DNA from: a virus
DNA: 48,536 nt
Reading direction: 5' to 3' (one strand)
IMG/VR virus record: IMGVR_UViG_3300009285_000015
Coordinates: 1 to 48,536 of that record
The position numbers and the translations under genes were made by a program. How positions within the stretch are numbered: position 1 is the stretch's first letter; each line of letters opens with the position of its first letter. Of this stretch, positions 1 to 48,536 are shown piece by piece. The notes beneath the pieces were generated by a model. That model saw only the letters and a list, made by a program, of their open reading frames with translations. It had not been told where the DNA came from and did not search any database.

Positions 1-77
1 TTCCAATCCATGCTGTTCTCCTATCGTCCGACAGTGAAGGTCTTAAAAACTTGAAATGTTCTCTCAGCGCCTTCTGC
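1..77. repeat. Terminal direct repeat, left copy (identical to 48460..48536)
   Basis: Read directly: bases 1-77 (ttccaatccatgctg...cgccttctgc) recur exactly as the last 77 bases. The start codon of the 48006..48470 ORF lies inside the repeat, and gene order is continuous across the junction. Confidence 0.95.
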
Positions 78-4661: not shown

Positions 4662-4896
4662 ACCGTCCCCTACTCTCTGTTTCTTCTACAATGGATTTAG
4701 GCAAGAGAAGGACATCTTTCGTACCAAAGTAAACACCTTGCCAATAGCGAGTATCCATCTCTGAATGCAAGACCCTATTAGTTTTGTCTTCAAGCATGGC
4801 TTCAATATGTTTCTTAAGTACTTGCCAGTAAGCAGTGCTTAAGAACTCTTGCATGACTTGGGCATCATGAATCCACTCTGCCTGTGTTTGATCCAT
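4648..4896 (-). CDS. Hypothetical protein (82 aa)
   Basis: ORF directly downstream of the portal gene; its start overlaps the portal stop. Confidence 0.45.
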   Translation of the reverse strand: MDQTQAEWIHDAQVMQEFLSTAYWQVLKKHIEAMLEDKTNRVLHSEMDTRYWQGVYFGTKDVLLLPKSIVEETESRGRYARS

Positions 4897-7208
4897 TACA
4901 TCATCCCTGGTGCGCCCATATTAGCGCCAGGAGAGGGAGTCTGCGGAGCCTGTTGGCCAGTCTGTGCATTCATAGCTTGTGGGCCAATTTGTGAGCCTTG
5001 GCTTGGCTTCCCTCCACCCTTTGCCATTAGTTGTTGAGCCATAGATTGCATTTGCGCTAGCCTTAAAGTCTTTGAGACGTGTTGCTGGAGTTTAGCAATG
5101 CCAACAGGACCAAGTGTTTGAAGAACTACTGTATTCTCCAGTTGAGCCATATGCAACTCTAAGTGTTGTAGAGCATTCTCTAGAATAGTTGGCTCCCTAT
5201 CTCCACCATCAACGAAGATTTGTAGTTCTTGTTCAGGAGTATAAACAATCTCTTCATCTCGAATAGGCTCTAAGATAAGGTCTGGATCACTCTCACCATA
5301 ACTACGGTAAAACTCCCTAAGTAGTCTGTGCAGGCCCTTTGTGCCAATGGCCCCAATTTGTAATAGAATGGGACTAAGAGCAGTAGTAAGTTTGACTGTA
5401 GCATCTTCCCGCATCACTTGACGATTGAGGGTTTCAGCAGTAGCGGTTAACTTTAAATCAAAATTCCCAAGCAGTTCACTACGATCTGTGAGTGTAATTA
5501 ACTCAGGAATTCTCCCAGTGACACGGAATTCTCTTCCGGGGGATAAATATTGAGCATCCAATGCAAGAATATGGCTGAACACTTTCTCCCACATAGATTG
5601 GAAGGCTCGCATTGCTGTGCGGAATCTTAATCCGGCCTCACTAAGTAGAGCCGAAGTCCCACTAGCAGTCCTAGTAGCACCAACCCGATTGGGCTGCCTA
5701 CCAAGAACAATGTCAGGAAGTCCAGTAAGCCGCTCAAAATATTGGTAAAGAAGAGCCTCTTCAGCCTGTCCAAATTGTGTTCCCCCCTGCCAGTTCATCA
5801 TTAAGATGTCACGAGAGGGGTCATCAATTGGAACTCCCTCGCCAGGACGGAGCTTATAGCCAACTGGACTATGAGTAGAACTGGCCCTATAAAAGTAACC
5901 AGGATTGTTTTGAATAGTTCCAGCATCTACCCGCTGATTATGAATTGTATTAATTTCTTCTTGGATACCTCTAACTATCTCTGCAAAGCTGACCCCGTAG
6001 AATCTCCCCGGAATAGGCAAGTATCGTCCCACGACGAAGGGTCTAAGTCCATGGGCAAAGACATTATCCAAATAGTCCCATCCAAGGAGCTTGTCTGGCA
6101 ATGTGGGACAGGACCACGTAATGATTTCTTCTTCAAATCCATCTTCATCTATATCCCAACGTCTGTAGTCTTCAATGATTTCATATTGAATAGTCTTAAC
6201 ATCTGTTTCTCCATCGGGGGCTACTCCTTCAATACTAGCTCTGTTATCTTCTACTCCTACTTGATCATCTGCTATATTCTTTCCAACCCCTTTGACTACA
6301 TTGATTAGCTCTTCTACTCTGTCTTGATAGAAACGGTTTTCTTGTACCTTTCTACGAAGATCATTTTCATATAACCACAATCTTTGAGAACAGAAAGGCA
6401 TTCTTTGAACATCATCCCCAGCATTGACAGGAACCAAGAAGTCTTCAGCAGTGATTAATTCAACCCTTGGGCCATCATATACTAATTCATCTTTTTCTAT
6501 TAATGCTAAGGTTTCTTTATCAGTATATTTAAACTTAGCTTTAACCTTCCGCTCAGTGGAGCCAGATTTAAGCGTGCCTTCCCATACATTAGTTGTAGTT
6601 TGCTCAAAGTCTTCTGGAAGGCTAGGACCAAAGAGAGTCCTCAGCATAATGCTTGAATCTGTCGCAGTAGGAAATCTGCGGAGGGCTTTTACCTTTCGTC
6701 TATCAGTACGCCATAGAATTTTAATAACCACAGTGCCGGGGATAAGGAAGCGATGAGCCGATTCACTAATTAATGAATCAAGATCAAGTTCGTTCTGAAT
6801 TTGCCAGTTTATAAAGAGTTCTACAACATCTCTCTTTTTATCATCTAAGGCTTCAGTAGGTTTGGCAATGAGAACTGGATCACCACCTAGAATGGTTTCA
6901 GTTAATCTAGGTTTGAGTGTTTCAACTCCCAGCATAGTGAGAGGAACATGGAAGTTAGAACATCCTGGCCAAGGGAAGTCTTTTCTTGGCAGTCTACCAT
7001 GATATAGATTATCCCATTCTATAAGACGAGTTTCCCAGTCCATGCGGTCAAGAAGTGCTGCTCTATAGTCAGAATGAATCATTCTAACCAAGTCTTCTTC
7101 ATCCCGCTCATCGAGACGTGGAATTAATTCATCTAATAGCTCATCCGCCTCTGTCTCAGGAGGAGCTTCTACTGGCTGGATTTCTTCAACTACTTCTTGT
7201 GCGTCCAT
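4896..7208 (-). CDS. Putative portal protein (770 aa)
   Basis: Large ORF immediately downstream of the terminase nuclease ORF. It has an acidic N-terminus and a Gln/Gly/Pro-rich C-terminal tail. Size and synteny are typical of a podovirus portal. Confidence 0.6.
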   Translation of the reverse strand: MDAQEVVEEIQPVEAPPETEADELLDELIPRLDERDEEDLVRMIHSDYRAALLDRMDWETRLIEWDNLYHGRLPRKDFPWPGCSNFHVPLTMLGVETLKPRLTETILGGDPVLIAKPTEALDDKKRDVVELFINWQIQNELDLDSLISESAHRFLIPGTVVIKILWRTDRRKVKALRRFPTATDSSIMLRTLFGPSLPEDFEQTTTNVWEGTLKSGSTERKVKAKFKYTDKETLALIEKDELVYDGPRVELITAEDFLVPVNAGDDVQRMPFCSQRLWLYENDLRRKVQENRFYQDRVEELINVVKGVGKNIADDQVGVEDNRASIEGVAPDGETDVKTIQYEIIEDYRRWDIDEDGFEEEIITWSCPTLPDKLLGWDYLDNVFAHGLRPFVVGRYLPIPGRFYGVSFAEIVRGIQEEINTIHNQRVDAGTIQNNPGYFYRASSTHSPVGYKLRPGEGVPIDDPSRDILMMNWQGGTQFGQAEEALLYQYFERLTGLPDIVLGRQPNRVGATRTASGTSALLSEAGLRFRTAMRAFQSMWEKVFSHILALDAQYLSPGREFRVTGRIPELITLTDRSELLGNFDLKLTATAETLNRQVMREDATVKLTTALSPILLQIGAIGTKGLHRLLREFYRSYGESDPDLILEPIRDEEIVYTPEQELQIFVDGGDREPTILENALQHLELHMAQLENTVVLQTLGPVGIAKLQQHVSKTLRLAQMQSMAQQLMAKGGGKPSQGSQIGPQAMNAQTGQQAPQTPSPGANMGAPGMM

Positions 7209-8108
7209 TTAGTCTCTGACGGTCCCATAGCCCATGTAATTAACTGAAGGTTGCATAAGTTGAGCAGCATTGAAGTGAATCCTACTTAATCCTAATTTAG
7301 AATGTAACCCAATTACAAGATAGCGCAATGAAGCCATAATATCAGCCCAAGGATGTGTATCATCATCAGGCTCTTCTTTAATACGGCCATCTCTAGTCTC
7401 AGGGAAGATATAACGACCTAGGAAGGCTTGGGTCAAAGTGGGGCAAGTGGACTCATCCACCCTAAGACCCGGCGTGCCATCAGCACGCATGGAGAGGAGT
7501 CTGTGCACTAAAGTCCTTCCATCCTTCCTAGACCATCCATATTCATAATTAGCATTTATACCTAATCCAGACAATACTTCAGTGTCTCTCTTTTCGTTCT
7601 TCTCAGATTCTAGAGATTTAACTTGTTGCCCCGCTGGATCACAATAATCTTCATATCCCGCTGCATGAAGAGGATACCAGTCTTCACAGAGTTTAATTAC
7701 TCGTTGGGCAAAGTCATTAGTAATTTGGTTTCTTCCTACAAGTTCTTTAATTATACAGAGTCTACCTTCTTTATCTATTTGAGCGAAGAGGCAAGCTGGA
7801 GCATGGTAGCCAAAGTCCCAACTTCTGTAGATTACTTTGTGTCTGTTGAATGGAATTAGTTGAGTATGATATATTTGGCTGAATTGGGGGAAGACCCGGC
7901 TGCCTTTTCCTACAAAAAAGTTAATGTTATATTCACGCTCGAAATCATTTGGGTCGGGGAATTGAGTCTTTTGCACGTCCACCCATTTTTGTGCTCGTTC
8001 CCTTTTTAACAGATCAGAGTTATCTGGGTCAAGGTCCGGGTTAGCCGTAAAATGCAGTCTAACAGCAGTAAACCCCATTGCGTTTTGTGATACACTAAAC
8101 CCTTTCAT
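7209..8108 (-). CDS. terL: Large terminase, C-terminal RNase-H-like nuclease domain encoded as a separate ORF (299 aa)
   Basis: Acidic-residue motifs match terminase nuclease domains: YRSWDFGY, EDYCDPAGQQ, and DDDTHPWADIMASLRYLV. The N-terminus (VRLHFTANPD, FEREYN) matches the region just after the ATPase domain in intact TerL. Confidence 0.7.
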   Translation of the reverse strand: MKGFSVSQNAMGFTAVRLHFTANPDLDPDNSDLLKRERAQKWVDVQKTQFPDPNDFEREYNINFFVGKGSRVFPQFSQIYHTQLIPFNRHKVIYRSWDFGYHAPACLFAQIDKEGRLCIIKELVGRNQITNDFAQRVIKLCEDWYPLHAAGYEDYCDPAGQQVKSLESEKNEKRDTEVLSGLGINANYEYGWSRKDGRTLVHRLLSMRADGTPGLRVDESTCPTLTQAFLGRYIFPETRDGRIKEEPDDDTHPWADIMASLRYLVIGLHSKLGLSRIHFNAAQLMQPSVNYMGYGTVRD

Positions 8109-8815
8109 TAAGGAATAATTATCCTACTCTTATCCTCTTCTGCTTTCTTTATCATATTATAAGCTCTAGCATATTGAGAATGAAGCATATTCATACTAAT
8201 TCCTTGAATCATATGGTCAGCGGGGATTCCAAAGTCACAGTAAATATCAAAGCCTGCTTTCTGTGCTCTGGAACAGAATGCAACGTCATCACTCATTACT
8301 TGGCAGCCCCAAGCATTGTATGTTACATTGAAGGGAGCTTTCATATCTGGATGCTCTAAGACTGTCCGTTGAATAGCTATACAACCCGTTGCTACAGCAT
8401 CACACACAACGAGGGCAGGGTTCCCGTAATACTCAAAAGGCTTCTCAAATGGAATGTAAACTTTCCGTTCCTTCTCAAATGTGAATATTCCGGGGAAGGG
8501 CAAATTAATCTCTGGTCTGCTGATAAAGTAAGGTGCCCCTACGATAGGCTCATTGTGGTTAAGAATGTTTAATAGGTTCTTATGGGGGACAACCTCTTCA
8601 TCTATCAGGATGAGATAATCATACTTTGCTGGGTGCTCAAGAAAGGTTCTTACTATAGCATTTCGTACATCACTGATACTTAACTTACTAGCAACGTATT
8701 GAATAGGAGGTAATGTAGGGCTAGCATCACGAATAGCTTGGAGTCTAGTTACTGTATTAGAGTCTATTAAGCCTTTAGTAGGAACTGCCAGCAAGACTTT
8801 ATTTAGTTCTAGCAT
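8108..8815 (-). CDS. GT-A-fold glycosyltransferase-like protein (235 aa from the ATG at 8815; the track start 8824 is a non-ATG alternative)
   Basis: YLILIDEEVV is a DxD-like acidic motif, and MSDDVAFCSRAQKAGFDIYCD...ADH resembles the ED..FC..A...G motif of family-2-like glycosyltransferases. Confidence 0.5.
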   Translation of the reverse strand: MLELNKVLLAVPTKGLIDSNTVTRLQAIRDASPTLPPIQYVASKLSISDVRNAIVRTFLEHPAKYDYLILIDEEVVPHKNLLNILNHNEPIVGAPYFISRPEINLPFPGIFTFEKERKVYIPFEKPFEYYGNPALVVCDAVATGCIAIQRTVLEHPDMKAPFNVTYNAWGCQVMSDDVAFCSRAQKAGFDIYCDFGIPADHMIQGISMNMLHSQYARAYNMIKKAEEDKSRIIIP

Positions 8816-8939
8816 GGTCCTCAAGATGCTTTATAAACATTTGTCTCAACTCGTGGAGGTCGTTAAAGATTATCTTTAACACAAATAAGAGATTGACGCC
8901 ACTAAGCATCACCCCGGCTAGGGAAAGATAGAATTCCAT
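8799..8939 (-). CDS. 46-aa hydrophobic (single-TM-like) peptide
   Basis: Translated by hand as MEFYLSLAGVMLSGVNLLFVLKIIFNDLHELRQMFIKHLEDHARTK. The ATG is 2 nt after the protease stop, and the ORF ends overlapping the glycosyltransferase start. It is below the ORF-track cutoff. Confidence 0.35.
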   Translation of the reverse strand: MEFYLSLAGVMLSGVNLLFVLKIIFNDLHELRQMFIKHLEDHARTK

Positions 8940-8941
8940 GA

Positions 8942-9646
8942 TTATTTAAGGTTTGGAATCAAGTGAATGGGCAAGAAGATGGCCATAGAGGATTGCCCTC
9001 CAGGACCAGCAGCTAAAATCCCCACAATGGTTTTCTGCTTAGTAGAAATGACAACTGACCCCGAGTTTCCTCCGGCACTATAAATGTTCGCTCCATAATA
9101 ATGGTTCCAAGCTAGGGAAGACAAACTAACGTCCTTAGAGCCAACTATTCCCTGTACAGCTAGGAAGTCCACACCAAAGGGAACCCCCACCATAACAAGG
9201 TCCTCGCCTATGATTAGCTTTTCGGAATCTCCAATAGGTAATGTGGCTTTAGAGCCCATTTCTGCTGTAAGAATAGCCCAATCGTGTCCACTATAGTCAT
9301 CAAGATCAGTACTGGTAGCTGACTTTCCGCTTCGTAAGGCAAGTCCAGATTTAAGCAGGGTTGCTTTGTAAAATGTCCTATGATCTTGGGTTACTAAGAA
9401 GTCAGTGCGCTTGAGTTCACTCCCTAGAAAGCAGTGTCCCGCTGTTAGGAGAAGAGTACGACTTGCATTGCTATCAAAGGCACCTGAAGAGCATACCGCA
9501 CTCATTCCACCCACTGAGCGTACATATATGGCCCAAGAGGCTTTCCGAACAGTTTGGAATAGGTCCTCATAGCCTGCAAAAGCTGTTCCACTTGAGAAGC
9601 CAAGAAGAGTACTTATTAAAAGAATGCTTCTAATGAGTAATTTCAC
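8942..9646 (-). CDS. Secreted chymotrypsin-fold (S1) serine protease (234 aa)
   Basis: It has an N-terminal signal peptide (MKLLIRSILLISTLLGFSSGTAFA|G). A His motif LTAGHCF, an Asp in HDWAIL and a Ser motif GGNSGSVV occur in the canonical H-D-S order. Confidence 0.7.
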   Translation of the reverse strand: MKLLIRSILLISTLLGFSSGTAFAGYEDLFQTVRKASWAIYVRSVGGMSAVCSSGAFDSNASRTLLLTAGHCFLGSELKRTDFLVTQDHRTFYKATLLKSGLALRSGKSATSTDLDDYSGHDWAILTAEMGSKATLPIGDSEKLIIGEDLVMVGVPFGVDFLAVQGIVGSKDVSLSSLAWNHYYGANIYSAGGNSGSVVISTKQKTIVGILAAGPGGQSSMAIFLPIHLIPNLK

Positions 9647-9649
9647 AAA

Positions 9650-10381
9650 CTATCCTTCATCAAATGATATTAAGTTGTGCCCATGATACAAAAGAGCAAA
9701 GGTGTTACTTGGTCCGTTTGGTGTACTTACTGCAATGAATTTAGTTGCCTTTTGAATTAAGGGTGCCACAGCTTGATAAACACCTTTTGCTTCTTCTTGA
9801 TATGCGAATTCATCTTCCACTATGAGGCTGGCTGTTTTACCACGTACTTGGTTAGCCCCACCTGCTACTGCTTCAATCATGCTCCCATTTGGATAGCCTA
9901 AGACACCAGCAGTTTCTTTAAGTGGTTGCCTGAGCCAGCTTGGAAGATTTCTTTCTATGAATTGCATTCTCCCGAAGTAACCTGTATCTTTATCTCCACC
10001 TGCCATACAAACCATCTTATGGGCATCTTCTGCCTTTTGTGTCTGCCAAACTATATACTTGTTAGAATGAAACCTAGCAAACCATACACAGTAAGTACAG
10101 AGTGCCCAGCTCACGAACATTTGTCTAGACTTGGCTATAGCAACTCGCTGGTTTGTAGAGATTACTTCCCATAACTCTTTGAGATATTCTAATTGAGGAT
10201 AAGACTTAACACTATCTTGATCAGCTTCATCCCTGGTCTTTACAAACTGTGTGAAGAACCAGCCATCTTTTGCACACCGCTTTAGTGCTTCTTCTCTAAG
10301 AGCATGAACTAGTCTAGCTGCTTCCTCTTTATTTTCCAGGAGTTTGTCTAGATTGGCTGGTTGATTCATAGTTTGATCCAA
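9650..10381 (-). CDS. terL: Large terminase, N-terminal ATPase domain encoded as a separate ORF (243 aa)
   Basis: P-loop region AKSRQMFVS is deviant, with no canonical GK[ST]. VRGKTASLIVEDEFAY provides the Arg plus Walker B DE. VSTPNG is the TerL coupling motif. The ORF stops shortly after this motif, where intact TerL continues into the nuclease domain. Confidence 0.7.
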   Translation of the reverse strand: MDQTMNQPANLDKLLENKEEAARLVHALREEALKRCAKDGWFFTQFVKTRDEADQDSVKSYPQLEYLKELWEVISTNQRVAIAKSRQMFVSWALCTYCVWFARFHSNKYIVWQTQKAEDAHKMVCMAGGDKDTGYFGRMQFIERNLPSWLRQPLKETAGVLGYPNGSMIEAVAGGANQVRGKTASLIVEDEFAYQEEAKGVYQAVAPLIQKATKFIAVSTPNGPSNTFALLYHGHNLISFDEG

Positions 10382-10985
10382 TTAGAGCTTTAACAAGTGC
10401 CTTAGCTTCTTCACTTAGATCACCACTTACAGTATGTTCTACTTGGGCACTTACTTTTAGATTCTCCCCACTGGAAGAGCTTGCTACTTTCTCTAGTGCT
10501 GCTAATCCTCTAGTTATATAGTCAAAGGACTTAGCGTCTGTCTTCTCTTTAGAGACAGTATTTAGCCAATCATAGACTTCTGCATTGACTTGTTGGATGC
10601 TAGCTAGACTGTGAATACGGATAACTTCTCTTACTTTAGTTGCAAACTCTCTTACTTCTGGTCTATTGAGAATTCCTCTGACAGCATAATCACTTAAGTC
10701 AAGGATTTTTACTATTTTTTCCCTGGAGATACCTAGTGCATACATGGCTGCTGCACTATTAGCATCCATGGCCCCAGGAATTTTCTTCCTTCTTCTTGGG
10801 GCTTTATTGTTAGTTCCAGGTGGGTTACCCCCACGTTTATTTTGTTTCTCTCCATGCGTCCTTCTAGTTATGAAAGGAGCCCCTTTATAATGTGGAGGGC
10901 ATTCTCCTTCATAAGTAGGGGTCAAGGAATAACCTTCTAGCTTAAGGAGAGGAGCACCTATTTCACTTTTTTCTATTTCTGTCAT
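10329..10985 (-). CDS. Putative small terminase / DNA-recognition subunit (218 aa)
   Basis: It is the first large gene of the packaging arm, directly upstream of TerL. It has a basic region (RRRKK) and a helix-turn-helix-like segment, GISREKIVKILDLSDYAVRGILN. Confidence 0.4.
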   Translation of the reverse strand: MTEIEKSEIGAPLLKLEGYSLTPTYEGECPPHYKGAPFITRRTHGEKQNKRGGNPPGTNNKAPRRRKKIPGAMDANSAAAMYALGISREKIVKILDLSDYAVRGILNRPEVREFATKVREVIRIHSLASIQQVNAEVYDWLNTVSKEKTDAKSFDYITRGLAALEKVASSSSGENLKVSAQVEHTVSGDLSEEAKALVKALIGSNYESTSQSRQTPGK

Positions 10986-10987
10986 GC

Positions 10988-11167
10988 TTAAGAGTACTTA
11001 ATCCAAGGCACCCAATAAGGATAACTGGGTGTATAAGGGTATTGGGGAGTTAGGTCTCTACCACAAGTAGGGCATCTATGACAAGTAGGACAAACATAGG
11101 GGATAGAAGTGTAGTTAAGAGTAGTCCTATCAGTAGTTGTATCACTGGGGGATGTACTATCTGGCAT
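10988..11167 (-). CDS. 59-aa Cys-rich zinc-ribbon-like protein
   Basis: Hand translation gives MPDSTSPSDTTTDRTTLNYTSIPYVCPTCHRCPTCGRDLTPQYPYTPSYPYWVPWIKYS. AAAGGA lies 5 nt upstream of the ATG, and the stop is 2 nt before the TerS-like start. Below the ORF-track cutoff. Confidence 0.45.
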   Translation of the reverse strand: MPDSTSPSDTTTDRTTLNYTSIPYVCPTCHRCPTCGRDLTPQYPYTPSYPYWVPWIKYS

Positions 11168-11200
11168 AAATTCCTTTAATTAACATATTTAATAGAGGTT

Positions 11201-11250
11201 TAGTTAGACTTCTCAGCTTTCAAGGCTTTATATGAGAGTTAGTCTAACTA
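11201..11250. promoter_or_regulatory. Long inverted repeat at the head of the leftward operon
   Basis: tagttagact (11201-11210) and agtctaacta (11241-11250) form a perfect 10-bp inverted repeat, extended by tctca/tgaga with a small bulge. Confidence 0.5.
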
Positions 11251-11401
11251 TTGCTACAATTTGTAGTATATTCGTAGCATGGATATATCAATCTGTAGTC
11301 ACCTCACTTGTTAAATAACCGGCTCTATGACAAATTGGCAGACTTTCTTCTTTCATATTATTCCCTGTATTTCCGTTCTCCTATTATATAGGAATATAGA
11401 A

Positions 11402-11500
11402 AATGGAAACACTGTTATATTTCAAGTAGTTCCGTGAAACAGTCCCCCTAGAAGAATTGTTAGAATTCCTTAATGAATCTAGATAGTTTCAAGTGTTTCC
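11402..11500. promoter_or_regulatory. GGAAACAC...GTGTTTCC element, copy 1 (shared with 18227..18332)
   Basis: aatggaaacac (11402-11412) and atttcaagta (11419-11428) are identical to blocks at 18227 and 18243. The inverted arm gtgtttcc at 11493-11500 lies 80 nt downstream of the left arm. Confidence 0.5.
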
Positions 11501-11674
11501 TTAGTTTTGTTAAAATTGACTTTCTCTTGAAATAGCATTTCTCCTTACTGCTATTGAGGTTAGCTCGCATAAATAGAGAAGTCAATGGCACTAGGTACTT
11601 AGAGAGCTAGTTAAGGAATTCAATTAGTTATGCTGAATCCTCTTTAAAGCCCCTTTTCTTACTGAAATCCCTAC

Positions 11675-11698
11675 TAGCATTGCTATATAGCAATGCTA
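11675..11698. promoter_or_regulatory. 24-bp perfect palindrome (operator candidate)
   Basis: tagcattgctatatagcaatgcta is its own reverse complement over 24 bp. It lies in the divergent control region. Confidence 0.55.
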
Positions 11699-11800
11699 TC
11701 TTGGGGTGTAGCTTGGAATGCTAGTGCGGAGAATATTCATAGTAAACTCCGCATTGATGCTTGGAAGGCAGAAAGGGAAACCTCGCACAGGGAAAATTAT

Positions 11801-11853
11801 GGAATTTTTTCAAACATTTTCCCTCTTTGAAAGAAATTGGGGAATTTTTTCAA
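11801..11853. repeat. 13-bp direct repeat GGAATTTTTTCAA x2, 40 bp apart
   Basis: Identical 13-mers at 11801-11813 and 11841-11853. Confidence 0.6.
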
Positions 11854-12054
11854 TCCTTGGGACTCCTCTCATTAATAACAGTACTATGACTGTTTATCCT
11901 CGTAATTGACATAGATACTATATAACGTGGTATCTCTTCTCTGGCCCCTTGGCTATACCTGGCCCTGTGGGGGGGCTTGGCTCCCTGGTCTGACCATTGG
12001 ACCAACTGACCACTAGACTCAGCATATGTTGAGTGTTCCTCCCCTGGCATGCAT

Positions 12055-12165
12055 CTTGCAAGGGCTCGCACAAGTCAATTTAGGGCAGCTGGCATGAGAA
12101 ATGCTGCTTGCAAGTAACATACCAAGGGCTTAGATAATAAATGGTATGGATTATGCATTTGCAAG
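12055..12165. repeat. Three phased (C/T)TTGCAAG palindromic sites (iteron/operator candidates)
   Basis: cttgcaag at 12055-12062 and 12107-12114, and tttgcaag at 12158-12165. Each is preceded by atgc. Spacing is 52 and 51 bp. Confidence 0.5.
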
Positions 12166-12389
12166 AGTTGTGCCAAAGAGACAGTGAGACATAATTGCCC
12201 CAGTGGGACATGAACGGGTGAGGCATGAATGCCCCAATGCAGATTGACACGTCAATCATTTCAATACTTTGCCATATTGCCTGGGATTGTCTCATTTATA
12301 AGAAATCTAATGATTTCGCATAGTTAGGGGGTTTGGCATAGCGTCTGCATATTCTCAAAGGTGGTATCCCACAAGGAAGGAAAGGTGAC

Positions 12390-12464
12390 ATGATGATATG
12401 TCATGTTTGCGGCCTCACAACGATGGAGCCGATCTGCCAGGCTCCAAAGCCTGAGAGCACATGA
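12390..12464 (+). CDS. 24-aa micro-ORF a (MMICHVCGLTTMEPICQAPKPEST)
   Basis: AAGGAAGGAAAGGTG purine run sits just upstream of the ATG. Its TGA overlaps the ATG of micro-ORF b (ATGA). It is paralogous to b, with mostly synonymous differences. It contains the hairpin tggagcc...ggctcca (12424-12446). Confidence 0.35.
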   Translation: MMICHVCGLTTMEPICQAPKPEST

Positions 12465-12619
12465 CAAAACAACAGGCGATCAAAATTCTACTCTGTCGTG
12501 TACGCGGTCTGACAACCTGGAGTTTCCCGGGTGGCTCATTCGGTGATTCTTATCCACTAGACTCGCGTGGACATGAACTGGAGCTGATCTGTCAGGCTCC
12601 ACCAGTCAAAGCCCGTTAA
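12461..12619 (+). CDS. 52-aa micro-ORF b (MTKQQAIKILLCRVRGLTTW...ELELICQAPPVKAR)
   Basis: It shares C-x-V-x-GLTT and ICQAP blocks with micro-ORF a. A second copy of the hairpin lies at 12579-12601. The stop sits inside a further hairpin, cccgt...acggg (12612-12630). Confidence 0.35.
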   Translation: MTKQQAIKILLCRVRGLTTWSFPGGSFGDSYPLDSRGHELELICQAPPVKAR

Positions 12620-12694
12620 AGTTTCACGGGTAGTACTCTTTGACAACTGAATAGGTTAGGGGTTAGGCCAAGGGGACAGGAAAGGCACTGTCAA

Positions 12695-15924: not shown

Positions 15925-16109
15925 TGTTGCCCCATAGAAAACTTATTGTTAAGGGGTGTGGCCATCTTTGTTTGAAAACGGCAAATATTGCCCTAACTAC
16001 TAATCGTATTTACCAGTCCACGGCAAAATGCGCTTTATGTGATCCTAGTATACGTGGACTTTGTGCTGTTTGCCAGGAGGGAACTAGTGACAAATCGACT
16101 GCCATCTGA
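15924..16109 (+). CDS. CGH miniprotein family member, long form (61 aa)
   Basis: MLPHRKLIVKGCGHLCLK...CALC...CAVC. The ATG overlaps the upstream stop (TAATG). Confidence 0.6.
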   Translation: MLPHRKLIVKGCGHLCLKTANIALTTNRIYQSTAKCALCDPSIRGLCAVCQEGTSDKSTAI

Positions 16110-17163
16110 AGTACCGCCAGCGGTTGCTACTTTCCTTAACCTGTGTGATGAAATAATAGACGCAAAATTGCCAATGGGGCGACTTGGTACTAGTTTAGTA
16201 AAGGGAAAGCTGACGTTATATTTAGGTGATAGTTATTTACAGTCTGATGAAGAACAAAAGATAGATGACTTAAAGCACGAAACTGGACATTTTGTGCTTC
16301 AGCATTTACCTAGGTGCGGCGAGAGAGATAAAATTCGGTTCAATTTAGTATGTGACGCATCATTAGCATATCAAGGAATAAACATAACTTTACCAACTGA
16401 TGTAACGTTTGATAAGCTGCCGTGTAAACACGGCGGAACTGTTCCACCTTCTGCACCTGAAGTAGCGTATGATCTACTAGCTGAGAATCCCAGTGGAGAG
16501 AGTTGTGGCTCTTTAATCATTTCCTTTTGTGATGACACACCAGAGAGTAAAGCTAAGTTAGCAATAATTGGAGCAATCATTAAAGCAAAGCATCCTGATT
16601 TTCTACAGTTTAATGGTGCTGGAAATGAAGCTGGAACTGGTAGAAGCATTCCTGAAATTCCGCCCCAACCTCCTTGGATACGTAGTGTACTTGATTATTT
16701 ATTGAAGACTACTCGTTCTTTAGACAGGCGCCGTTCTTGGAGAAGAGAACACCGAGCACTTCCCGATTTACTTCCGGGGCGTTCTAGAAGCTATGATATT
16801 GCTTGTAGGATACTGTACGATGCTTCAGGATCAATTAGTCAAGAGTTATCTGCACAATTCCTTGGAGCTATAGCAAATACACCTGAATTAGCGGGCTCTG
16901 ATGTGGTAGTGTTTGATACAAAGATTAGTAAACCTATACCCGTAAATAACATAAAGGCTATATGTGACAAAGTAGAAGAAATGGGGGGTGGTACTGCTAT
17001 CAAGAAAGCAGGTATGAAGGGGCGGCTACTTACTGTCCCAATTGTGTGGCTAACTGATTGCGAGAGTGGAGACGGATTTCCTCCACCACACGATACTGTA
17101 GAAATATGGTGCGTAAGTGGCTCAGCTAATCACCCTCATGGAATAAGGGTGCAAGTTGATTAA
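16087..17163 (+). CDS. vWA-domain protein with N-terminal HExxH metallopeptidase-like region (DUF2201-like)
   Basis: HETGHFVLQH is the HExxH motif, and the MIDAS-like DASGSIS is followed by VVVFD. I chose the GTG start at 16087 because AGGAGGG sits 6 nt upstream; the ORF-track start 16039 is also possible. Confidence 0.65.
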   Translation: MTNRLPSEVPPAVATFLNLCDEIIDAKLPMGRLGTSLVKGKLTLYLGDSYLQSDEEQKIDDLKHETGHFVLQHLPRCGERDKIRFNLVCDASLAYQGINITLPTDVTFDKLPCKHGGTVPPSAPEVAYDLLAENPSGESCGSLIISFCDDTPESKAKLAIIGAIIKAKHPDFLQFNGAGNEAGTGRSIPEIPPQPPWIRSVLDYLLKTTRSLDRRRSWRREHRALPDLLPGRSRSYDIACRILYDASGSISQELSAQFLGAIANTPELAGSDVVVFDTKISKPIPVNNIKAICDKVEEMGGGTAIKKAGMKGRLLTVPIVWLTDCESGDGFPPPHDTVEIWCVSGSANHPHGIRVQVD

Positions 17164-23266: not shown

Positions 23267-23699
23267 ACCTGAAGCCTGCCGTCCATGCCCAATGGCGGGG
23301 GATATGCTTGGGTTCTGCCCTGATGATGAACCAGTGAATGCAGCAAAAGTGTTTGTCTTAGGGCAGAACCCAGGATCAGATGAAGAGAGCAAAGGGACAG
23401 CATTCATTGGTAAGACTGGGGATATGCTTATCAATGAATTCTTTCCTCGTGGGGGATTGATTAGAGGGGAAAATGCTATTTGTGGGAATGCCATTAAGTG
23501 CAGGTGGGTTAAAGATGGGAAAAGAGTTAATGAATTACCCCCCGCTGCAATACTCAATACTGCATTAGAGCACTGTGTTAAGGCACATCTACGTATTCCG
23601 AAGGATATTACATTGGTAGTTGCTTGTGGAGCCTTGGCATGGAAAGCGGTTGGTGGAGAAGGAAAGATAACGGATTGGAGGGGTTTTTTAAAGCCATGA
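23256..23699 (+). CDS. Uracil-DNA-glycosylase-superfamily (family 4-like) protein (147 aa from the ATG at 23256)
   Basis: VFVLGQNPGSDEESKGTAFIGKTGDMLINEF matches the GE.PG..E...G.PF.G..G..L motif of family-4 UDGs. N-terminal CRPC is present. Its position upstream of a family-A polymerase is common in phages. Confidence 0.55.
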   Translation: MLPKPEACRPCPMAGDMLGFCPDDEPVNAAKVFVLGQNPGSDEESKGTAFIGKTGDMLINEFFPRGGLIRGENAICGNAIKCRWVKDGKRVNELPPAAILNTALEHCVKAHLRIPKDITLVVACGALAWKAVGGEGKITDWRGFLKP

Positions 23700-23863
23700 T
23701 GTGGGTAATGCTTCTTCAGAATTATTTTTGTATTGCTGATACTGGTATTAAATGTGTTAAAAAGCACCCACCCGCTTGGCTTTTCCCCTGTGGTCACATA
23801 TGCACCGACACTACATTACCTAGTAATAATTGTCATCCGAATTGTGTTGAGAAGGAAAAATGA
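23696..23863 (+). CDS. CGH miniprotein family member (55 aa)
   Basis: MMWVMLLQNYFCIADTGIKCVKKHPPAWLFPCGHICTDTTLPSNNCHPNCVEKEK. Both junctions are ATGA overlaps. Confidence 0.65.
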   Translation: MMWVMLLQNYFCIADTGIKCVKKHPPAWLFPCGHICTDTTLPSNNCHPNCVEKEK

Positions 23864-24033
23864 GGGTACACCTAGATGTGTCAGAAGATATAGTAGCTAC
23901 TATTTGTGCAACTGGGGCTTGTGCGCGTTTTTCCCCCCATGTTTGGCTAAGGCGTTGTGGGCATCTTTATCTTGTTACAATGAATAATGTACGTGAACAA
24001 GCAGGGGAGTGCTCTTGCAATGGAAACAAATGA
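23860..24033 (+). CDS. CGH miniprotein family member (57 aa)
   Basis: MRVHLDVSEDIVATICATGACARFSPHVWLRRCGHLYLVTMNNVREQAGECSCNGNK. Not in the ORF track; the track shows a different-frame shadow at 23733..23987. Confidence 0.6.
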   Translation: MRVHLDVSEDIVATICATGACARFSPHVWLRRCGHLYLVTMNNVREQAGECSCNGNK

Positions 24034-24223
24034 TCTCCTTGATGAAATCACAATGAGAGAACCCATTGAACAGCAAGTAGTCAAAGCATTCTGTTCAACT
24101 TGTGCTTCCTTGCTCGGCAGTTTCTATGTATCTAAAGAGCAACCAATAGAAGGAGCACAAATGCGGGCCGAGCGATTAGCTAGTGGGCATAAACATTCTA
24201 CAGTTAAGTTGACTTATGATTGA
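24020..24223 (+). CDS. Small Cys/His protein (67 aa; CSTC...GHKH)
   Basis: METNDLLDEITMREPIEQQVVKAFCSTCASLLG...LASGHKHSTVKLTYD. The ATG at 24020 overlaps the end of the previous gene. Confidence 0.45.
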   Translation: METNDLLDEITMREPIEQQVVKAFCSTCASLLGSFYVSKEQPIEGAQMRAERLASGHKHSTVKLTYD

Positions 24224-24236
24224 GCATAAATGAACC

Positions 24237-24401
24237 ATGATTGAGACGGCTGATTATCATAACCAGTATTTCTTTGTAGGAGTTAGTGGAACAGGGAGAA
24301 GTATCAACAAGGCTTGGCTATTTCCATGCGGTCACATGGAAAATACGGAGCTATATGAAGAGAGAGAGTATTCTTGTTTTCGTAAGTGTACAGAAAAATG
24401 A
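24237..24401 (+). CDS. CGH miniprotein family member (54 aa)
   Basis: MIETADYHNQYFFVGVSGTGRSINKAWLFPCGHMENTELYEEREYSCFRKCTEK. Its stop overlaps the next ATG (ATGA). Not in the ORF track. Confidence 0.65.
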   Translation: MIETADYHNQYFFVGVSGTGRSINKAWLFPCGHMENTELYEEREYSCFRKCTEK

Positions 24402-24583
24402 AAACTCCCATTCAAGTCCACAGATTCAAGCAGCGGGATAATACCGATGTAGGACCTATTTTCTCCCTTGGGCGATTCCTAGAACCACCAGGATATGTTT
24501 GGCTTTACCGGTGTGGTCACATAATGCCTTATCCAAGTGGAACAAGAAGTGCACCTGACCAGTGTCCATGCCTGAAATATTAG
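24398..24583 (+). CDS. CGH miniprotein family member (61 aa)
   Basis: MKTPIQVHRFKQRDNTDVGPIFSLGRFLEPPGYVWLYRCGHIMPYPSGTRSAPDQCPCLKY. Confidence 0.65.
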   Translation: MKTPIQVHRFKQRDNTDVGPIFSLGRFLEPPGYVWLYRCGHIMPYPSGTRSAPDQCPCLKY

Positions 24584-26565
24584 CAGTCCTGCATCCAGCG
24601 GACTTGTTTAGGGACCCAAGCATGCGTCTCCCTTCTCACAGAGATTGGGCTAAAGTACAGCCTATCTTAAAGAGAGAATGGCCTTTACCTGTTCCTAGTA
24701 GATTGATTATAACACCGGAGAATATTAGTGACATACACGGTGAACAATTTGAGAAGCTTTTACTCCAAGCTCAGAATGCTAACTGGATAGCCATAGATAC
24801 TGAATATGACCAAGAGACACGATTTCTCACGCTCATTGGAGTTGGGTTTAGAGTTAATGGAAAAGTCTCCGGGTTTCAAGTCTCCTGCTCTAGACTTCCA
24901 AGATGGGCAAGAGGAACCCTTGAGGGCATTATTAAGTCTTTGGTCATGGACGTTCCATGTGTATGTCAAAACTCCATAGGGGCTGAATTACCTGTTCTTA
25001 AACAGAATTTGTTTATTGAATACAAAGATTATAAACAAATTGAAGATACAATGCTAGCTCATGCTGTTCTATGGAGTGATTGGGCACATGATCTTGAATT
25101 CTTAGCATCTCTTTATAGTCCTTATAATAAAATGAAACATCTTAAGGGAATAGACTTTTTCTTGTATAACTGGGGGGATGTAATAGATACAATAGCAGTA
25201 TGGGAAGGTTTGTTAACAGAGTTTAAGCAAGACCTCTTAAGTGAAGCTATATACAGAGAGCAATCTCTTAAATTAATCCCCTTAGTATTAGAAGCACATG
25301 AGCGGGGCATTAAGGTAAATAAGGCTGCTGTGGAACCCCTTGCGAAAGAGTTACTACATAGAAAAGAGAAAGCATTAATACTAGCTCAAGCAGCCTGCGG
25401 TTATCCTATTAATATAGGCAGTAATAAACAACTAGCTAAATATTGTTATGAAGAGAGGAAGTATCCAATTCCAAAGGAACGAGGAAAAGAGAAGACTACT
25501 GTAAAAGGAGATGCTATTGCAGAGTTACGTAAATATGTAGGACCGGAGCCAAACTTAGAGGGAGAAGAAAGAGATGGCTTGGACTTTGAGGAAGTTGAAA
25601 GACGAATCCAAGGAGGCGCAGACCCTGTACTTGAAGCAAGGGTTATCTACGCCAATGCGTTACAGGAATATTCACATTATATTGCCCCTTGCTACAAAGA
25701 GACAGTCTTGGTTGATAGAATCTTCCCCGAATTCAAGTTACACACTCAGTCAACAGGAAGATGGTCTACAACTGGTGTTCCCATGGCACAACTTCCCAAA
25801 CACCTCCGTTCAATTGTCTGTGCTGACGAAGGCTTCCGGCAAGTGGAGTATGACTGGAGTCAAATAGAATTAAGATTGCTTGCTGTTCTAGCACAAGATG
25901 AACCATTACTTACTGCTTTTAACAAAGAGTGGGATGTTCATACCTTAACAGCATGTGAACTATTTGGGCTCCCATATCCCCCTAACAGAGTAGACCCACA
26001 CAACAGTGAAGAGTGTAAGGTATGGCGGTCCCTGATCCAATGGGGGGGTACGGGGGATACAAGGCGCACATTTGCTAAGCAATTTGTGTATAGATTGAAT
26101 TATGGAGGATCAGCTAAAGAGGCCATTACTATTCCAGGGGCTAAGATGCTTGGCTTGAATGCTGCTAAGCTATCAATGGTGGCTAATAGATACTTAGCTG
26201 CCCATCCTGGTCTCTCTAAATGGCGTTCTGCAATGGCTATGAGTGTGCAAGGAAAGTTTCCTACAGTCCGTACATTCATGGGGAGGAAACGTATCCTATT
26301 AACTAATGGACCTAAGAAGATAAGGGAAGCGTATGATACTCCTATGCAAGCTGGAGTTAGTGATATAGCTAATATAACTGCTATTACTATATATAAGGAG
26401 TTACCTTGGTTACAATTTCTCTTTCAATTACATGATGGCTGGAGATGGCAATGTCCTACTGTATTGTTGGATGAAACTATGCCACAGTTAAAGAAAATAG
26501 TAGAAAGAGAGTGGAATGTAAATGGTGTGGTTACTAAATTTCCAGCTACTTTTACAGTGCTATGA
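24568..26565 (+). CDS. Family-A (T7/Pol I-like) DNA polymerase with 3'-5' exonuclease domain
   Basis: Exo I is WIAIDTEYD, motif A is EYDWSQIELRLLA, motif B is RRTFAKQFVYRLNYGGS, and motif C is FQLHDGW. The ATG at 24568 is preferred; the GTG at 24562 is an alternative. Confidence 0.9.
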   Translation: MPEILAVLHPADLFRDPSMRLPSHRDWAKVQPILKREWPLPVPSRLIITPENISDIHGEQFEKLLLQAQNANWIAIDTEYDQETRFLTLIGVGFRVNGKVSGFQVSCSRLPRWARGTLEGIIKSLVMDVPCVCQNSIGAELPVLKQNLFIEYKDYKQIEDTMLAHAVLWSDWAHDLEFLASLYSPYNKMKHLKGIDFFLYNWGDVIDTIAVWEGLLTEFKQDLLSEAIYREQSLKLIPLVLEAHERGIKVNKAAVEPLAKELLHRKEKALILAQAACGYPINIGSNKQLAKYCYEERKYPIPKERGKEKTTVKGDAIAELRKYVGPEPNLEGEERDGLDFEEVERRIQGGADPVLEARVIYANALQEYSHYIAPCYKETVLVDRIFPEFKLHTQSTGRWSTTGVPMAQLPKHLRSIVCADEGFRQVEYDWSQIELRLLAVLAQDEPLLTAFNKEWDVHTLTACELFGLPYPPNRVDPHNSEECKVWRSLIQWGGTGDTRRTFAKQFVYRLNYGGSAKEAITIPGAKMLGLNAAKLSMVANRYLAAHPGLSKWRSAMAMSVQGKFPTVRTFMGRKRILLTNGPKKIREAYDTPMQAGVSDIANITAITIYKELPWLQFLFQLHDGWRWQCPTVLLDETMPQLKKIVEREWNVNGVVTKFPATFTVL

Positions 26566-48470: not shown

Positions 48471-48536
48471 GCTGTTCTCCTATCGTCCGACAGTGAAGGT
48501 CTTAAAAACTTGAAATGTTCTCTCAGCGCCTTCTGC
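48460..48536. repeat. Terminal direct repeat, right copy (identical to 1..77)
   Basis: Exact 77-nt identity with the window start. Confidence 0.95.

What the first reader, a model, noticed from the sequence alone, without database searches (positions are those of the whole stretch)
7209..10381. Large terminase split into separate ATPase and nuclease ORFs by a 1.5-kb three-gene insertion
The ORF 9650..10381 carries the TerL ATPase hallmarks: P-loop region AKSRQMFVS, VRGKTASLIVEDEF Walker B and the VSTPNG coupling motif. It stops about 20 residues after that motif.

The RNase-H-like nuclease half (SWDFGY, YCDPAG, DDDTHPWAD) is a separate ORF at 7209..8108. Three same-strand genes sit between the two halves: an S1 protease, a 46-aa membrane peptide and a glycosyltransferase.

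The break falls at the natural interdomain linker, and both halves look intact. I saw no intein blocks, and the intervening ORFs have their own start codons. This looks like a two-polypeptide terminase or an unusually large insertion, not simple decay.

The P-loop also lacks the canonical GK[ST]. It resembles the deviant KS....S type discussed for lambda gpA.
Basis: partly seen in the sequence, partly recalled or inferred. Interest (0 to 1): 0.7.

Follow-up and report, generated by a model that had tools for sequence, protein, structure and literature searches.

The report
Two-gene phage large terminase
This uncultured phage, like more than half of its nearest relatives, encodes its DNA-packaging motor (large terminase) as two separate, conserved genes cut inside the ATPase domain, and the three genes lying between them here are later passengers that did not cause the split.

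Summary
The ORFs and motifs are real. ORF1 (10381..9650) is a T4-gp17-like terminase ATPase core. ORF2 (8108..7209) carries the terminase RNase-H-like nuclease.

Three parts of the interpretation need correcting.

1. The 1.5-kb insert did not split the gene. In 26 of 28 close relatives (46-61% identity) the halves are already separate ORFs. Twelve abut directly, often with an ATGA stop/start overlap. Of the 150 nearest family clusters, 84 are ATPase-only.

2. The break is not at the ATPase-nuclease linker. It maps to T4 gp17 K305|S306, the boundary between the ATPase (ASCE) core and the lid subdomain. ORF2 is therefore lid plus nuclease. Its invariant E59 aligns with T4 E351, the lid partner of the Walker-A arginine (R86 in ORF1).

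3. The junction is an insertion hotspot. It holds a glycosyltransferase-like gene, an HNH gene or unknown ORFs in relatives. The protease is specific to this phage.

Both halves are under purifying selection (dN/dS 0.05-0.30). Six independent assemblies are identical. No intron, intein or recoding signal was found. The deviant P-loop, K-S-R-Q-x-x-x-[ST], is invariant family-wide, in fused members too.

Verdict: a functional two-chain terminase. I found no description of it in the literature searched. Physical association of the two chains is untested.

The parts
10329..10985 (-). 218-aa conserved upstream neighbour; candidate small terminase (TerS). Its identity is not established.
   Evidence: tblastn homologues lie immediately upstream of ORF1 in 23 of the 29 close loci L001-L029. 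There is only a weak HTH_7 hit (0.017, below cutoff) and no NCBIfam hit. It overlaps the start of ORF1.
9650..10381 (-). TerL chain 1: N-terminal region plus the ASCE ATPase core. It holds Walker A KSRQMFVS (10132..10109, R86), Walker B and catalytic Glu LIVEDE (9826..9809) and C-motif STPNG (9727..9713). The probable true start is the ATG at 10369.
   Evidence: K84, S85, R86, Q87, D190, E191, S219 and P221 are invariant in 37 homologues; T220, N222 and G223 are at least 90% conserved. The fold matches the T4 gp17 ATPase at E about 1e-12.
8942..9646 (-). Secreted S1 (trypsin-like) serine protease; accessory cargo specific to this phage's junction.
   Evidence: Trypsin_2 at 1.3e-11 and a signal peptide. 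It is absent from all 56 related loci. 92 homologues occur in other contexts on other phage-size contigs.
8799..8939 (-). 46-aa ORF with one hydrophobic helix; reality uncertain.
   Evidence: Kyte-Doolittle 19-residue maximum is 2.15. It is not called in database assemblies. A small ORF of similar architecture follows the protease in L068 but not in L066.
8108..8824 (-). Glycosyltransferase-like gene (probable start ATG at 8815, giving 235 aa). It is a recurrent member of this clade's packaging module, with a variable position.
   Evidence: phrog_1574 at 2e-13 and GT PHROGs at 3e-8; Pfam GT2_3 at 0.013, below cutoff. Homologues lie between the halves in L005 and L012, but after ORF2 in L002, L006, L007 and L029.
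7905..8108 (-). TerL chain 2, N-terminal part (residues 1-68): the last ASCE strand or strands plus the lid subdomain. It includes invariant E59 (7934..7932), which aligns with T4 gp17 E351.
   Evidence: The fused-family profile aligns continuously to T4 gp17 95-401. The direct alignment puts the break at T4 K305|S306 and E59 at E351. The T4 lid is I314-E357 (PMC6379665 Table 1). The AF2 model has strands 4-8 and 14-18 and helices 33-48 and 53-59.
7209..7904 (-). TerL chain 2, RNase-H-like nuclease domain, with D98 (7817..7815), D157 (7640..7638) and D256 (7343..7341).
   Evidence: The SPP1 and P22 nuclease-domain constructs begin at profile positions 305 and 304, about 65 positions after the break.
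4896..7208 (-). Portal protein (SU10 type). It starts 1 nt after the ORF2 stop.
   Evidence: PF23899 at 2.4e-39 and phrog_1216 at 3.7e-44.

Best explanation
The large terminase of this phage lineage underwent gene fission and is made as two polypeptides from two cistrons of one late operon.

Chain 1 (ORF1) is the ASCE ATPase core, with Walker A, Walker B plus catalytic Glu, and the C-motif.

Chain 2 (ORF2) supplies the final core strand, the lid subdomain (including the glutamate that partners the Walker-A arginine) and the RNase-H-like nuclease.

The cut lies in a variable, insertion-tolerant loop equivalent to T4 gp17 305|306. My inference is that the chains reassemble non-covalently by fold complementation into a normal TerL protomer. 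That protomer would dock on the portal and package and cut DNA as usual, with the arginine-lid coupling working across the chain boundary.

Once the gene was two cistrons, the junction became ordinary intergenic space. Accessory genes can land there and ride on late transcription. In this genome it holds a secreted S1 protease, perhaps with a small membrane peptide, and a glycosyltransferase-like gene.

Shown here: homology and fold of both halves, the position of the break, conservation of the split, purifying selection, the secondary nature of the insert, and the absence of splicing or recoding signals.

Inferred only: physical association of the chains and packaging activity.
For: 1. Identity and fold of both halves.

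2. Collinearity with fused relatives and T4 gp17: the profile of 58 fused relatives aligns to gp17 95-401 at E = 7.6e-33. The multiple alignment puts the break at K305|S306 and ORF2 E59 at T4 E351, conserved in all 9 sequences. E59 is invariant in 40 ORF2 homologues.

3. The split is conserved. All 84 ORF1 homologues are 158-271 aa (all but one truncated entry at least 210 aa) and all 120 listed ORF2 homologues are 238-323 aa. 26 of 28 close loci are split, 12 of them abutting (overlap of 4 nt to a gap of about 1 nt). All 26 distant loci have ATPase ORFs of 160-392 aa, none full length. In the exhaustive search of 1.84 billion representatives, 84 of the best 150 are short, and 79 of the 82 that reach the end of the profile stop within 10 residues of it.

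4. The junctions use TAG, TGA and TAA, and the frame relation varies. ORF2 begins with a conserved Met-Lys-Gly.

5. dN/dS is 0.05-0.30 for both halves in split genome pairs.

6. The fission predates the insert. The tree has fused outgroups, then a clade of 21 split genomes. The protease is absent from all relatives and the GT-like gene changes position.

7. Six independent assemblies are 100% identical over the 3.5-kb region.

8. Gene spacing in the window is 3 nt, 2 nt, an overlap, and a 1-nt overlap. There is no room for terminators, and the promoter and terminator scans are at background.
Against: - No direct evidence that the two proteins bind each other or package DNA. AF2-multimer was not available.
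- The window proteins do not reach any Pfam or NCBIfam terminase model.
- From memory, not verified here: T4 gp17 domains split at residue 360 were reported not to reconstitute packaging in trans. A two-chain motor is therefore not trivially expected to work, although the cut here is at a different place.
- The nesting of the fused L003 inside the split clade has only 52-54% bootstrap support. The order of fission and fusion events is therefore not firm.
Confidence: 0.8

Rival explanations
1. The three-gene insertion itself broke an intact terL in this lineage. The two halves are a recent consequence of that event.
For: In this window the halves are 1541 nt apart with three foreign-looking genes between them. 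The protease is specific to this phage.
Against: Relatives at 46-61% identity have the same break with no insert at all, only an ATGA overlap. The break position is conserved in 79 of the 82 short family representatives that reach the end of the profile. Fused forms are the outgroups, and the split clade is old, with dS saturated between members.
Confidence: 0.04
2. The halves are rejoined into one polypeptide or mRNA. Candidate routes are a group I/II intron, protein trans-splicing by a split intein, or programmed frameshift, readthrough or stop-codon reassignment.
For: terL genes are known to be interrupted by group I introns (Jug phages, PMC12880540) and by inteins (Mic1, PMC7156551). The phiPDS1 authors raised a codon-table explanation for their split (PMC10773633).
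Against: - No Rfam family hit at E <= 1 in 6500..11500.
- The intervening DNA is densely coding.
- Relatives with no spacer still have a stop and a new start.
- All three stop codons and all frame relations occur.
- ORF1 ends and ORF2 begins within TerL-homologous sequence, with no extra residues for intein fragments compared with fused relatives.
Confidence: 0.04
3. Both proteins are functional but work separately. ORF1 alone would be the packaging ATPase, like the nuclease-less phi29 gp16, and ORF2 would be a free-standing maturation nuclease that is not part of the motor protomer.
For: phi29-type motors translocate DNA without a nuclease domain. The phi29 ATPase N-domain is among the fold hits of ORF1 (5hd9, E = 2e-3). 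The two genes can be separated by up to 1.5 kb without loss.
Against: ORF2 carries about 68 residues that belong to the ATPase domain in every fused relative and in T4: the strand at T4 306-313, and the lid with the conserved Glu. Current TerL models all need the lid to couple hydrolysis to movement (PMC5727402; PMC6379665). The two genes are always co-oriented and within about 1.5 kb, and they evolve at similar rates.
Confidence: 0.1
4. Artefact or decay: a chimeric assembly, a sequencing frameshift, or a terL pseudogene in a defective element.
For: The phiPDS1 authors considered assembly error for their split TerL.
Against: - Six independent assemblies from ENA, JGI and Logan are 100% identical.
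- The same architecture occurs in dozens of related loci.
- dN/dS is far below 1 and the catalytic residues are invariant.
- The window is a complete circular phage genome with a portal, head genes and a polymerase.
Confidence: 0.02

Closest known systems
T4 gp17-type large terminase (PDB 3cpe, 2o0h, 3ezk)
   Same: ASCE ATPase core with an S-R-Q P-loop segment, Walker B plus catalytic Glu, and a TTPNG/STPNG C-motif. It also shares the lid subdomain with its conserved Glu (T4 E351, here ORF2 E59) and an RNase-H-like nuclease whose first catalytic Asp (T4 D401) aligns with D98. The fold match has rmsd 2.5 A.
   Different: T4 gp17 is one polypeptide. Here the chain is cut at the equivalent of K305|S306. 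The P-loop lysine is at position 1 (KSRQxxx[ST]) and not in a GK[ST] motif. Sequence identity is only about 21-31%.
Lambda gpA deviant Walker A (KSA-R79-VGYS; Mitchell & Rao 2004, cited in PMC6379665)
   Same: Lysine at the first position and Ser/Thr at the eighth position of the P-loop, with no GK[ST].
   Different: The conserved arginine is at position 3, as in T4, and not at position 4. There is no sequence membership in the gpA family (no Pfam hit). The motif is family-wide and unrelated to the split.
Intron-split and intein-containing terL genes (Jug phages PMC12880540; cyanophage Mic1 PMC7156551)
   Same: terL coding sequence interrupted by other DNA. Homing endonucleases are sometimes present; an HNH/EndoVII-like ORF sits at the junction in relative L002.
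   Different: Those are restored to one polypeptide by RNA or protein splicing. Here there is no ribozyme, no intein blocks, and independent stop and start codons, and the split persists without any intervening DNA.
Parabacteroides phage phiPDS1 'two large terminase genes' (PMC10773633; MN929097)
   Same: A cultured phage annotated with two adjacent TerL CDS representing parts of one TerL.
   Different: The split is 337 aa + 148 aa with a 92-nt gap, so it is at a different position. phiPDS1 was not among the phage records matched by ORF2 or by the fused relative P0210, so it is not a close relative. The authors suspected a codon-table or assembly problem and did no comparative analysis.
Herpesvirus pUL15 terminase (two exons flanking other genes) - from general knowledge
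   Same: Terminase ATPase-nuclease coding sequence separated by unrelated genes.
   Different: The herpesvirus exons are spliced into one mRNA and protein. The intervening genes are on the opposite strand and the break position differs.
phi29 gp16 packaging ATPase
   Same: An ASCE packaging ATPase that exists without a covalently attached active nuclease (fold hit 5hd9).
   Different: phi29 has no separate lid-plus-nuclease partner gene. Here the partner is always encoded nearby and retains the catalytic residues.

Membership tests
Large terminase (TerL) of tailed phages | ASCE P-loop ATPase fold with Walker B plus catalytic Glu and a C (coupling) motif | tested here: met
   AF2 model against T4 gp17: E about 1e-12, TMq 0.68. 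LIVEDE and STPNG are conserved (D190, E191, S219 and P221 invariant; T220, N222 and G223 at least 90%).
Large terminase (TerL) of tailed phages | Canonical Walker A G/A-xxxx-GK[ST] | tested here: not met
   KSRQMFVS. Across 137 family representatives the motif is K[ST]R[QR]hhh[ST]W, with K and R in 137 of 137 and no GK. This lysine-first deviant pattern is known from lambda gpA.
Large terminase (TerL) of tailed phages | Lid subdomain following the ASCE core, with the acidic partner of the P-loop arginine | tested here: met
   Present, but on ORF2: residues about 1-68, with E59 aligned to T4 E351 (T4 lid limits from PMC6379665).
Large terminase (TerL) of tailed phages | C-terminal RNase-H-like nuclease with a conserved acidic triad | tested here: met
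   Fold hits to D6E TerL and to the P22, SPP1 and RB49 nuclease domains. D98, D157 and D256 are invariant.
Large terminase (TerL) of tailed phages | ATPase and nuclease on one polypeptide | tested here: not met
   Separate ORFs with their own stop and start codons, here and in 26 of 28 close loci and 84 of the 150 nearest clusters.
Large terminase (TerL) of tailed phages | Encoded next to the portal gene in the packaging or head module | tested here: met
   The SU10-type portal starts 1 nt after the ORF2 stop. The order is the same in relatives.
Large terminase (TerL) of tailed phages | ATP-driven DNA packaging and concatemer cleavage activity | not testable with these tools
   Needs biochemistry.
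Pfam Terminase_6N / Terminase_6C | Score above the Pfam gathering threshold | tested here: not met
   No Pfam hit at E <= 0.1 for ORF1 or ORF2. Some homologues carry a precomputed PF03237 hit.
Group I/II intron-interrupted gene | Ribozyme secondary structure in the intervening sequence, with exons that join in frame | tested here: not met
   Rfam scan at E <= 1 found nothing in 6500..11500. The split persists with zero spacer in relatives.
Intein or split-intein containing protein | Hint-domain blocks at the junction, giving extra residues relative to uninterrupted homologues | tested here: not met
   The alignment with fused relatives leaves no unaccounted residues at the ORF1 C-terminus or the ORF2 N-terminus. 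There are no Pfam Hint or intein hits.
Programmed frameshift, readthrough or stop-codon reassignment | A consistent frame relation, or a single reassigned stop codon at the junction | tested here: not met
   Junction stops are TAG, TGA and TAA. Overlaps and gaps of -4, -1, 0, +3 and +6 nt occur, as do long inserts, and the frames vary.

The most novel reading that the evidence does not exclude
A large, essentially uncultured family of tailed phages runs its packaging motor with an obligate two-chain TerL. The chains are cut between the ASCE core and the lid, so the P-loop arginine and its lid glutamate partner act across a protein-protein interface.

The fission appears to have arisen at least twice in the same loop. 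The close clade cuts at the C-terminal end of the variable linker, and the distant lineage cuts at its N-terminal end. It has been reversed at least once (L003/L004).

This architecture has not been described. It would be a natural split-protein system for testing whether covalent ATPase-lid-nuclease linkage is needed for force generation.

A further speculation, with no evidence here, is that splitting alters recognition by TerL-sensing Avs defence proteins.
Probability: 0.45. Interest if true: 0.7.

Novelty: new variant of a known kind. Interest (0 to 1): 0.55.

Why it matters
TerL motors are among the strongest molecular motors known. All current mechanisms (T4 electrostatic, Sf6 and P74-26 lid rotation, lambda arginine toggle) treat the ASCE core, lid and nuclease as one chain, with motion passing through covalent hinges. 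A naturally split TerL, conserved and under selection, shows that the core-lid connection can be non-covalent.

It also identifies a permissive loop (T4 gp17 305/306) for engineering split or tagged motors.

There are practical consequences for annotation. Pipelines that expect one terL of about 500-600 aa will mis-size or miss these genes, or flag them as broken, as happened with phiPDS1. TerL-based phylogenies and completeness checks need to concatenate the halves.

Finally, the junction is a hotspot for accessory-gene insertion inside the packaging operon.

Tried and rejected
1. Near-identical DNA search in INPHARED: no match. The phage has no cultured relative.

2. Prophage relatives in 185,579 GTDB species genomes: none.

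3. PDB sequence search with ORF2 alone: no meaningful hit. A fused-family profile and fold search were needed.

4. Rfam intron search: negative.

5. Literature:
- Six searches for a two-gene or split TerL, for the deviant Walker A and for separated T4 domains.
- They found intron, intein and phiPDS1 cases, but none with a cut at the core/lid boundary.
- The jumbo-phage review and the Mic1 paper were read and are not relevant to two-gene TerLs.
- My recollection that T4 N360 and C360 do not complement in trans could not be confirmed in PMC3074133.

6. phiPDS1 as the same phenomenon: rejected. The split position differs (337 + 148 aa).

7. The Manatee Spring INPHARED hits: fused TerLs of 494 and 486 aa, so not split.

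8. The distant split lineage (L045 ORF2) against INPHARED and PHROGs: no hits.

10. The Fitch count of split/fused changes (32 against a shuffled mean of 45) rests on a noisy NJ tree at about 25% identity. It is not a reliable event count.

11. A promoter and terminator scan of the insert was at background.

12. The reality of the 46-aa ORF could not be settled.

Full report
**Observation**

The five minus-strand ORFs are as described:
- ORF1 at 10381..9650 (243 aa; the likely real start is the ATG at 10369, because the identical database protein P0001 is 239 aa)
- an S1 protease at 9646..8942
- a 46-aa hydrophobic ORF at 8939..8799
- a glycosyltransferase-like ORF at 8824..8108
- ORF2 at 8108..7209 (299 aa)

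The portal gene follows at 7208..4896. Motif coordinates were verified:
- ORF1: KSRQMFVS (10132..10109), LIVEDE (9826..9809), STPNG (9727..9713), with the stop 20 residues later
- ORF2: D98, D157 and D256

Gene spacing is 3 nt, 2 nt, an overlap, a 1-nt TAATG overlap and 0 nt, so this is a tightly packed operon.

**Are these terminase halves?**

Yes.

ORF1:
- It hits TerL PHROGs (5e-10 and 3e-8) and T4 gp17 by sequence (1.9e-5).
- Its AlphaFold model (pLDDT 88.5) superposes on the T4 gp17 ATPase with rmsd 2.5 A, TMq 0.68 and E about 1e-12.

ORF2:
- It hits nuclease-type TerL PHROGs (1.6e-5).
- Its model (pLDDT 83) matches full-length D6E TerL (1.8e-8), the P22 and SPP1 nuclease domains, and HK97 TerL.

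Neither ORF reaches a Pfam or NCBIfam model.

**The split is not caused by the insert**

All 84 database homologues of ORF1 are 158-271 aa; all but one truncated entry are at least 210 aa. All 120 listed homologues of ORF2 are 238-323 aa. These reach down to about 46-48% identity.

I fetched 56 IMG/VR loci and mapped the window's proteins onto them. Of 28 close loci (46-61% identity):
- 26 have separate ORFs.
- 12 of those abut directly. There is an ATGA 4-nt overlap in L001, L015/16, L021/22, L026 and L029, a zero gap in L028, and about 1 nt in L006/7 and L011.
- 14 have spacers of 115-958 nt.

The spacers hold varied content:
- the GT homologue in L005 and L012
- an HNH/EndoVII-like ORF in L002
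- a 321-aa unknown ORF in L013
- small unknown ORFs elsewhere

The GT homologue sits after ORF2 in L002, L006, L007 and L029. The protease has no homologue in any of the 56 loci. The junction is therefore a variable intergenic slot, and the window simply has the largest load.

Junction stops are TAG, TGA and TAA, and the frame relation varies. That excludes readthrough, a reassigned stop codon or a programmed frameshift.

**How widespread is the split?**

An exhaustive HMM search of 1.84 billion cluster representatives with the ORF1 profile found 7,129 relatives at E <= 1e-3. Among the best 150:
- 84 are shorter than 300 aa
- 61 are 440 aa or longer
- 5 are intermediate

Of the 82 short ones that reach the end of the profile, 79 stop within 10 residues of it. 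These are genuine stops at one place, not contig-edge truncations.

The 26 distant IMG/VR loci (about 25% identity) all have ATPase ORFs of 160-392 aa, none full length. Where ORF2 is detectable it follows with an overlap or gap of -4 to +16 nt, or 142 nt in L051.

**Direction of evolution**

An NJ tree of concatenated halves was built on 531 columns with 200 bootstraps.
- The fused proteins P0210, L027 and P0208 fall as successive outgroups. P0208 is sister at 100%.
- Inside is a clade of 21 split genomes plus one fused member. That member, L003, is also seen as L004 in an independent sample.
- L003 is nested with only 52-54% support.
- Its junction carries a unique linker of about 25 aa that is absent from all others. 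That fits a secondary re-fusion by loss of the stop codon.

The distant split lineage (L033, L045) cuts in the same loop but at its N-terminal end, so the linker travels with ORF2. This points to an independent fission.

Across 137 representatives a Fitch count gives 32 state changes against 45 for shuffled states. There is phylogenetic signal, but the tree is too noisy to count events.

**Where exactly is the cut?**

A profile of 58 fused relatives (A3) aligns continuously to T4 gp17 residues 95-401 (E = 7.6e-33). On that profile:

| Feature | Profile position |
|---|---|
| Break | about 236 |
| P74-26 ATPase-domain crystal construct | reaches about 301 |
| SPP1 and P22 nuclease-domain constructs | begin at 305 and 304 |

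A direct alignment puts the break at T4 K305|S306, just before GFEPYTAIW.

Table 1 of PMC6379665 defines the T4 lid as I314-E357, with E351 as the partner of the Walker-A arginine R162. ORF2 E59 aligns with E351 in all nine aligned sequences and is invariant in 40 ORF2 homologues. ORF1 R86 is invariant.

So ORF2 is the last ASCE strand or strands, plus the lid, the linker and the nuclease. ORF1 is the rest of the ASCE core.

The AF2 model of ORF2 has two N-terminal strands (4-8, 14-18) and two helices (33-48, 53-59) before the RNase-H fold starts at residue 93. The ORF1 model ends after the C-motif strand and one helix. I infer that ORF2's first strand completes the ORF1 sheet. That is fold complementation, and it would make the pair an obligate heterodimer. 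This step is inferred, not shown.

**Function and integrity**

- dN/dS between split genome pairs is 0.05 and 0.06 (L021/L022), 0.05 and 0.12 (L023/L025), 0.12 and 0.13 (L015/L013), and 0.22 and 0.30 (L008/L011), for ORF1 and ORF2 respectively.
- The identical ORF1 protein lies on 16 contigs. The six examined come from ENA (three samples), JGI and Logan (two runs). The five compared by DNA are 100% identical to the window over the aligned region of 3.1-3.5 kb. Mis-assembly is excluded.
- Rfam finds no intron-like RNA at E <= 1.
- There is no space for intein fragments.

**The P-loop**

The motif is K-[ST]-R-[QR]-h-h-h-[ST]-W in 137 of 137 representatives, fused and split alike. The lysine is at position 1 and Ser/Thr at position 8, as in lambda gpA (KSA-R79-VGYS). 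The S-R-Q segment matches T4 (LS-R162-QLGKT).

**The passengers**

The protease has a Sec signal peptide followed by a conserved AGYE motif. It belongs to a family of 92 proteins of similar size. These occur on other phage-size contigs in unrelated positions:
- after an amidase cluster and before a fused 504-aa TerL in L066
- at the end of a tail operon in L068

It is therefore mobile accessory cargo. The 46-aa ORF remains unproven.

**Literature**

I found three kinds of interrupted terL:
- intron-split terL, with splicing verified (PMC12880540)
- intein-bearing TerL (PMC7156551)
- one cultured phage, phiPDS1, annotated with two TerL CDS that its authors suspected were an artefact (PMC10773633)

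The phiPDS1 split is 337 + 148 aa, at a different position. No paper in the searchable library describes a conserved two-cistron TerL cut at the core/lid boundary.

BFVD holds a few unnamed viral proteins of about 300 aa that resemble ORF2. Short TerL PHROGs also exist. Such genes are therefore catalogued, but as far as I can tell they have not been interpreted.

**Verdict**

This is a real, functional-looking two-chain large terminase that arose by gene fission. The three-gene block is a secondary insertion at the inter-cistronic junction. It is a new variant of a known machine and moderately interesting.

Noticed in passing
window 1..77 and 48460..48536: The first 77 nt are identical to the last 77 nt, so the window is a complete, circularly closed phage genome of about 48.46 kb. 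Other assemblies of the same phage are 48,467-48,876 bp.
   Followed up: yes
window 8108..8824; loci L002, L005, L006, L007, L012, L029: The glycosyltransferase-like gene (phrog_1574) is a recurrent member of this clade's packaging module but changes position. It lies between the TerL halves in the window, L005 and L012, and between ORF2 and the portal in L002, L006, L007 and L029. Its substrate is unknown.
   Followed up: partly
L002:3122-3597: The TerL junction in this relative holds a 168-aa ORF with an endonuclease VII/HNH-like motif (DHNH...CNxxxGH). It looks like a free-standing homing endonuclease sitting exactly at the fission point.
   Followed up: no
L013:2460-3419: A 321-aa ORF of unknown function occupies the TerL junction in this relative. 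It was not scanned against any family library.
   Followed up: no
window 8942..9646; L066:5001-5684; L068:5001-5705: A family of about 235-aa secreted S1 proteases has a conserved AGYE motif right after the signal peptide. It is widespread on phage-size contigs. In L066 it follows an Amidase_2 (endolysin-like) gene cluster, hinting at a role in lysis or envelope processing.
   Followed up: partly
window 8799..8939: The 46-aa ORF (a TM helix followed by a charged helix) is not called in database assemblies. A 55-aa ORF of similar architecture follows the protease in L068, but the 44-aa ORF in L066 is not hydrophobic. A 47-aa TM ORF also precedes the GT-like gene in L005.
   Followed up: partly
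L003:4443-6185 and L004:7926-9668: A fused 580-aa TerL occurs inside the otherwise split clade, in two independent IMG/VR contigs. Its unique linker of about 25 aa (IDGAEDGSSAATPRIVRDRVTELPPI) sits at the junction, which points to a re-fusion.
   Followed up: partly
window about 11170..12690: This is the strand-switch region between the leftward structural and packaging genes and the rightward genes. It has no ORF longer than 73 aa and the window's second-lowest GC (0.38), and the cumulative GC skew reaches its minimum next to it, near 11 kb. It is a candidate origin or divergent promoter region. A second switch and the skew maximum lie near 30-31 kb.
   Followed up: no
window 10988..11167: A 59-aa ORF with two CxxC pairs (CPTCHRCPTCGR), zinc-ribbon-like, lies immediately upstream of the putative small terminase.
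   Followed up: no
window 16039..17163: A 374-aa ORF has an HNH endonuclease C-terminal region (phrog_1314, 3e-17) in the replication arm. The family-A DNA polymerase is at 24562..26565 (phrog_17, 2e-62).
   Followed up: no
BFVD hits A0A516L2X5 (306 aa), A0A516L0P9 (324 aa), A0A6C0RS87 (298 aa, Streptomyces phage JXY1): These stand-alone viral proteins of about 300 aa are structurally similar to ORF2 (lid plus nuclease). The JXY1 protein would be a cultured-phage example of a free nuclease half if confirmed.
   Followed up: no
L057 (MN929097) 23502..25054: phiPDS1's two 'terminase large subunit' CDS are 337 and 148 aa with a 92-nt gap. That is a different cut position from the family studied here. 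Whether it is real or an artefact was not examined.
   Followed up: partly
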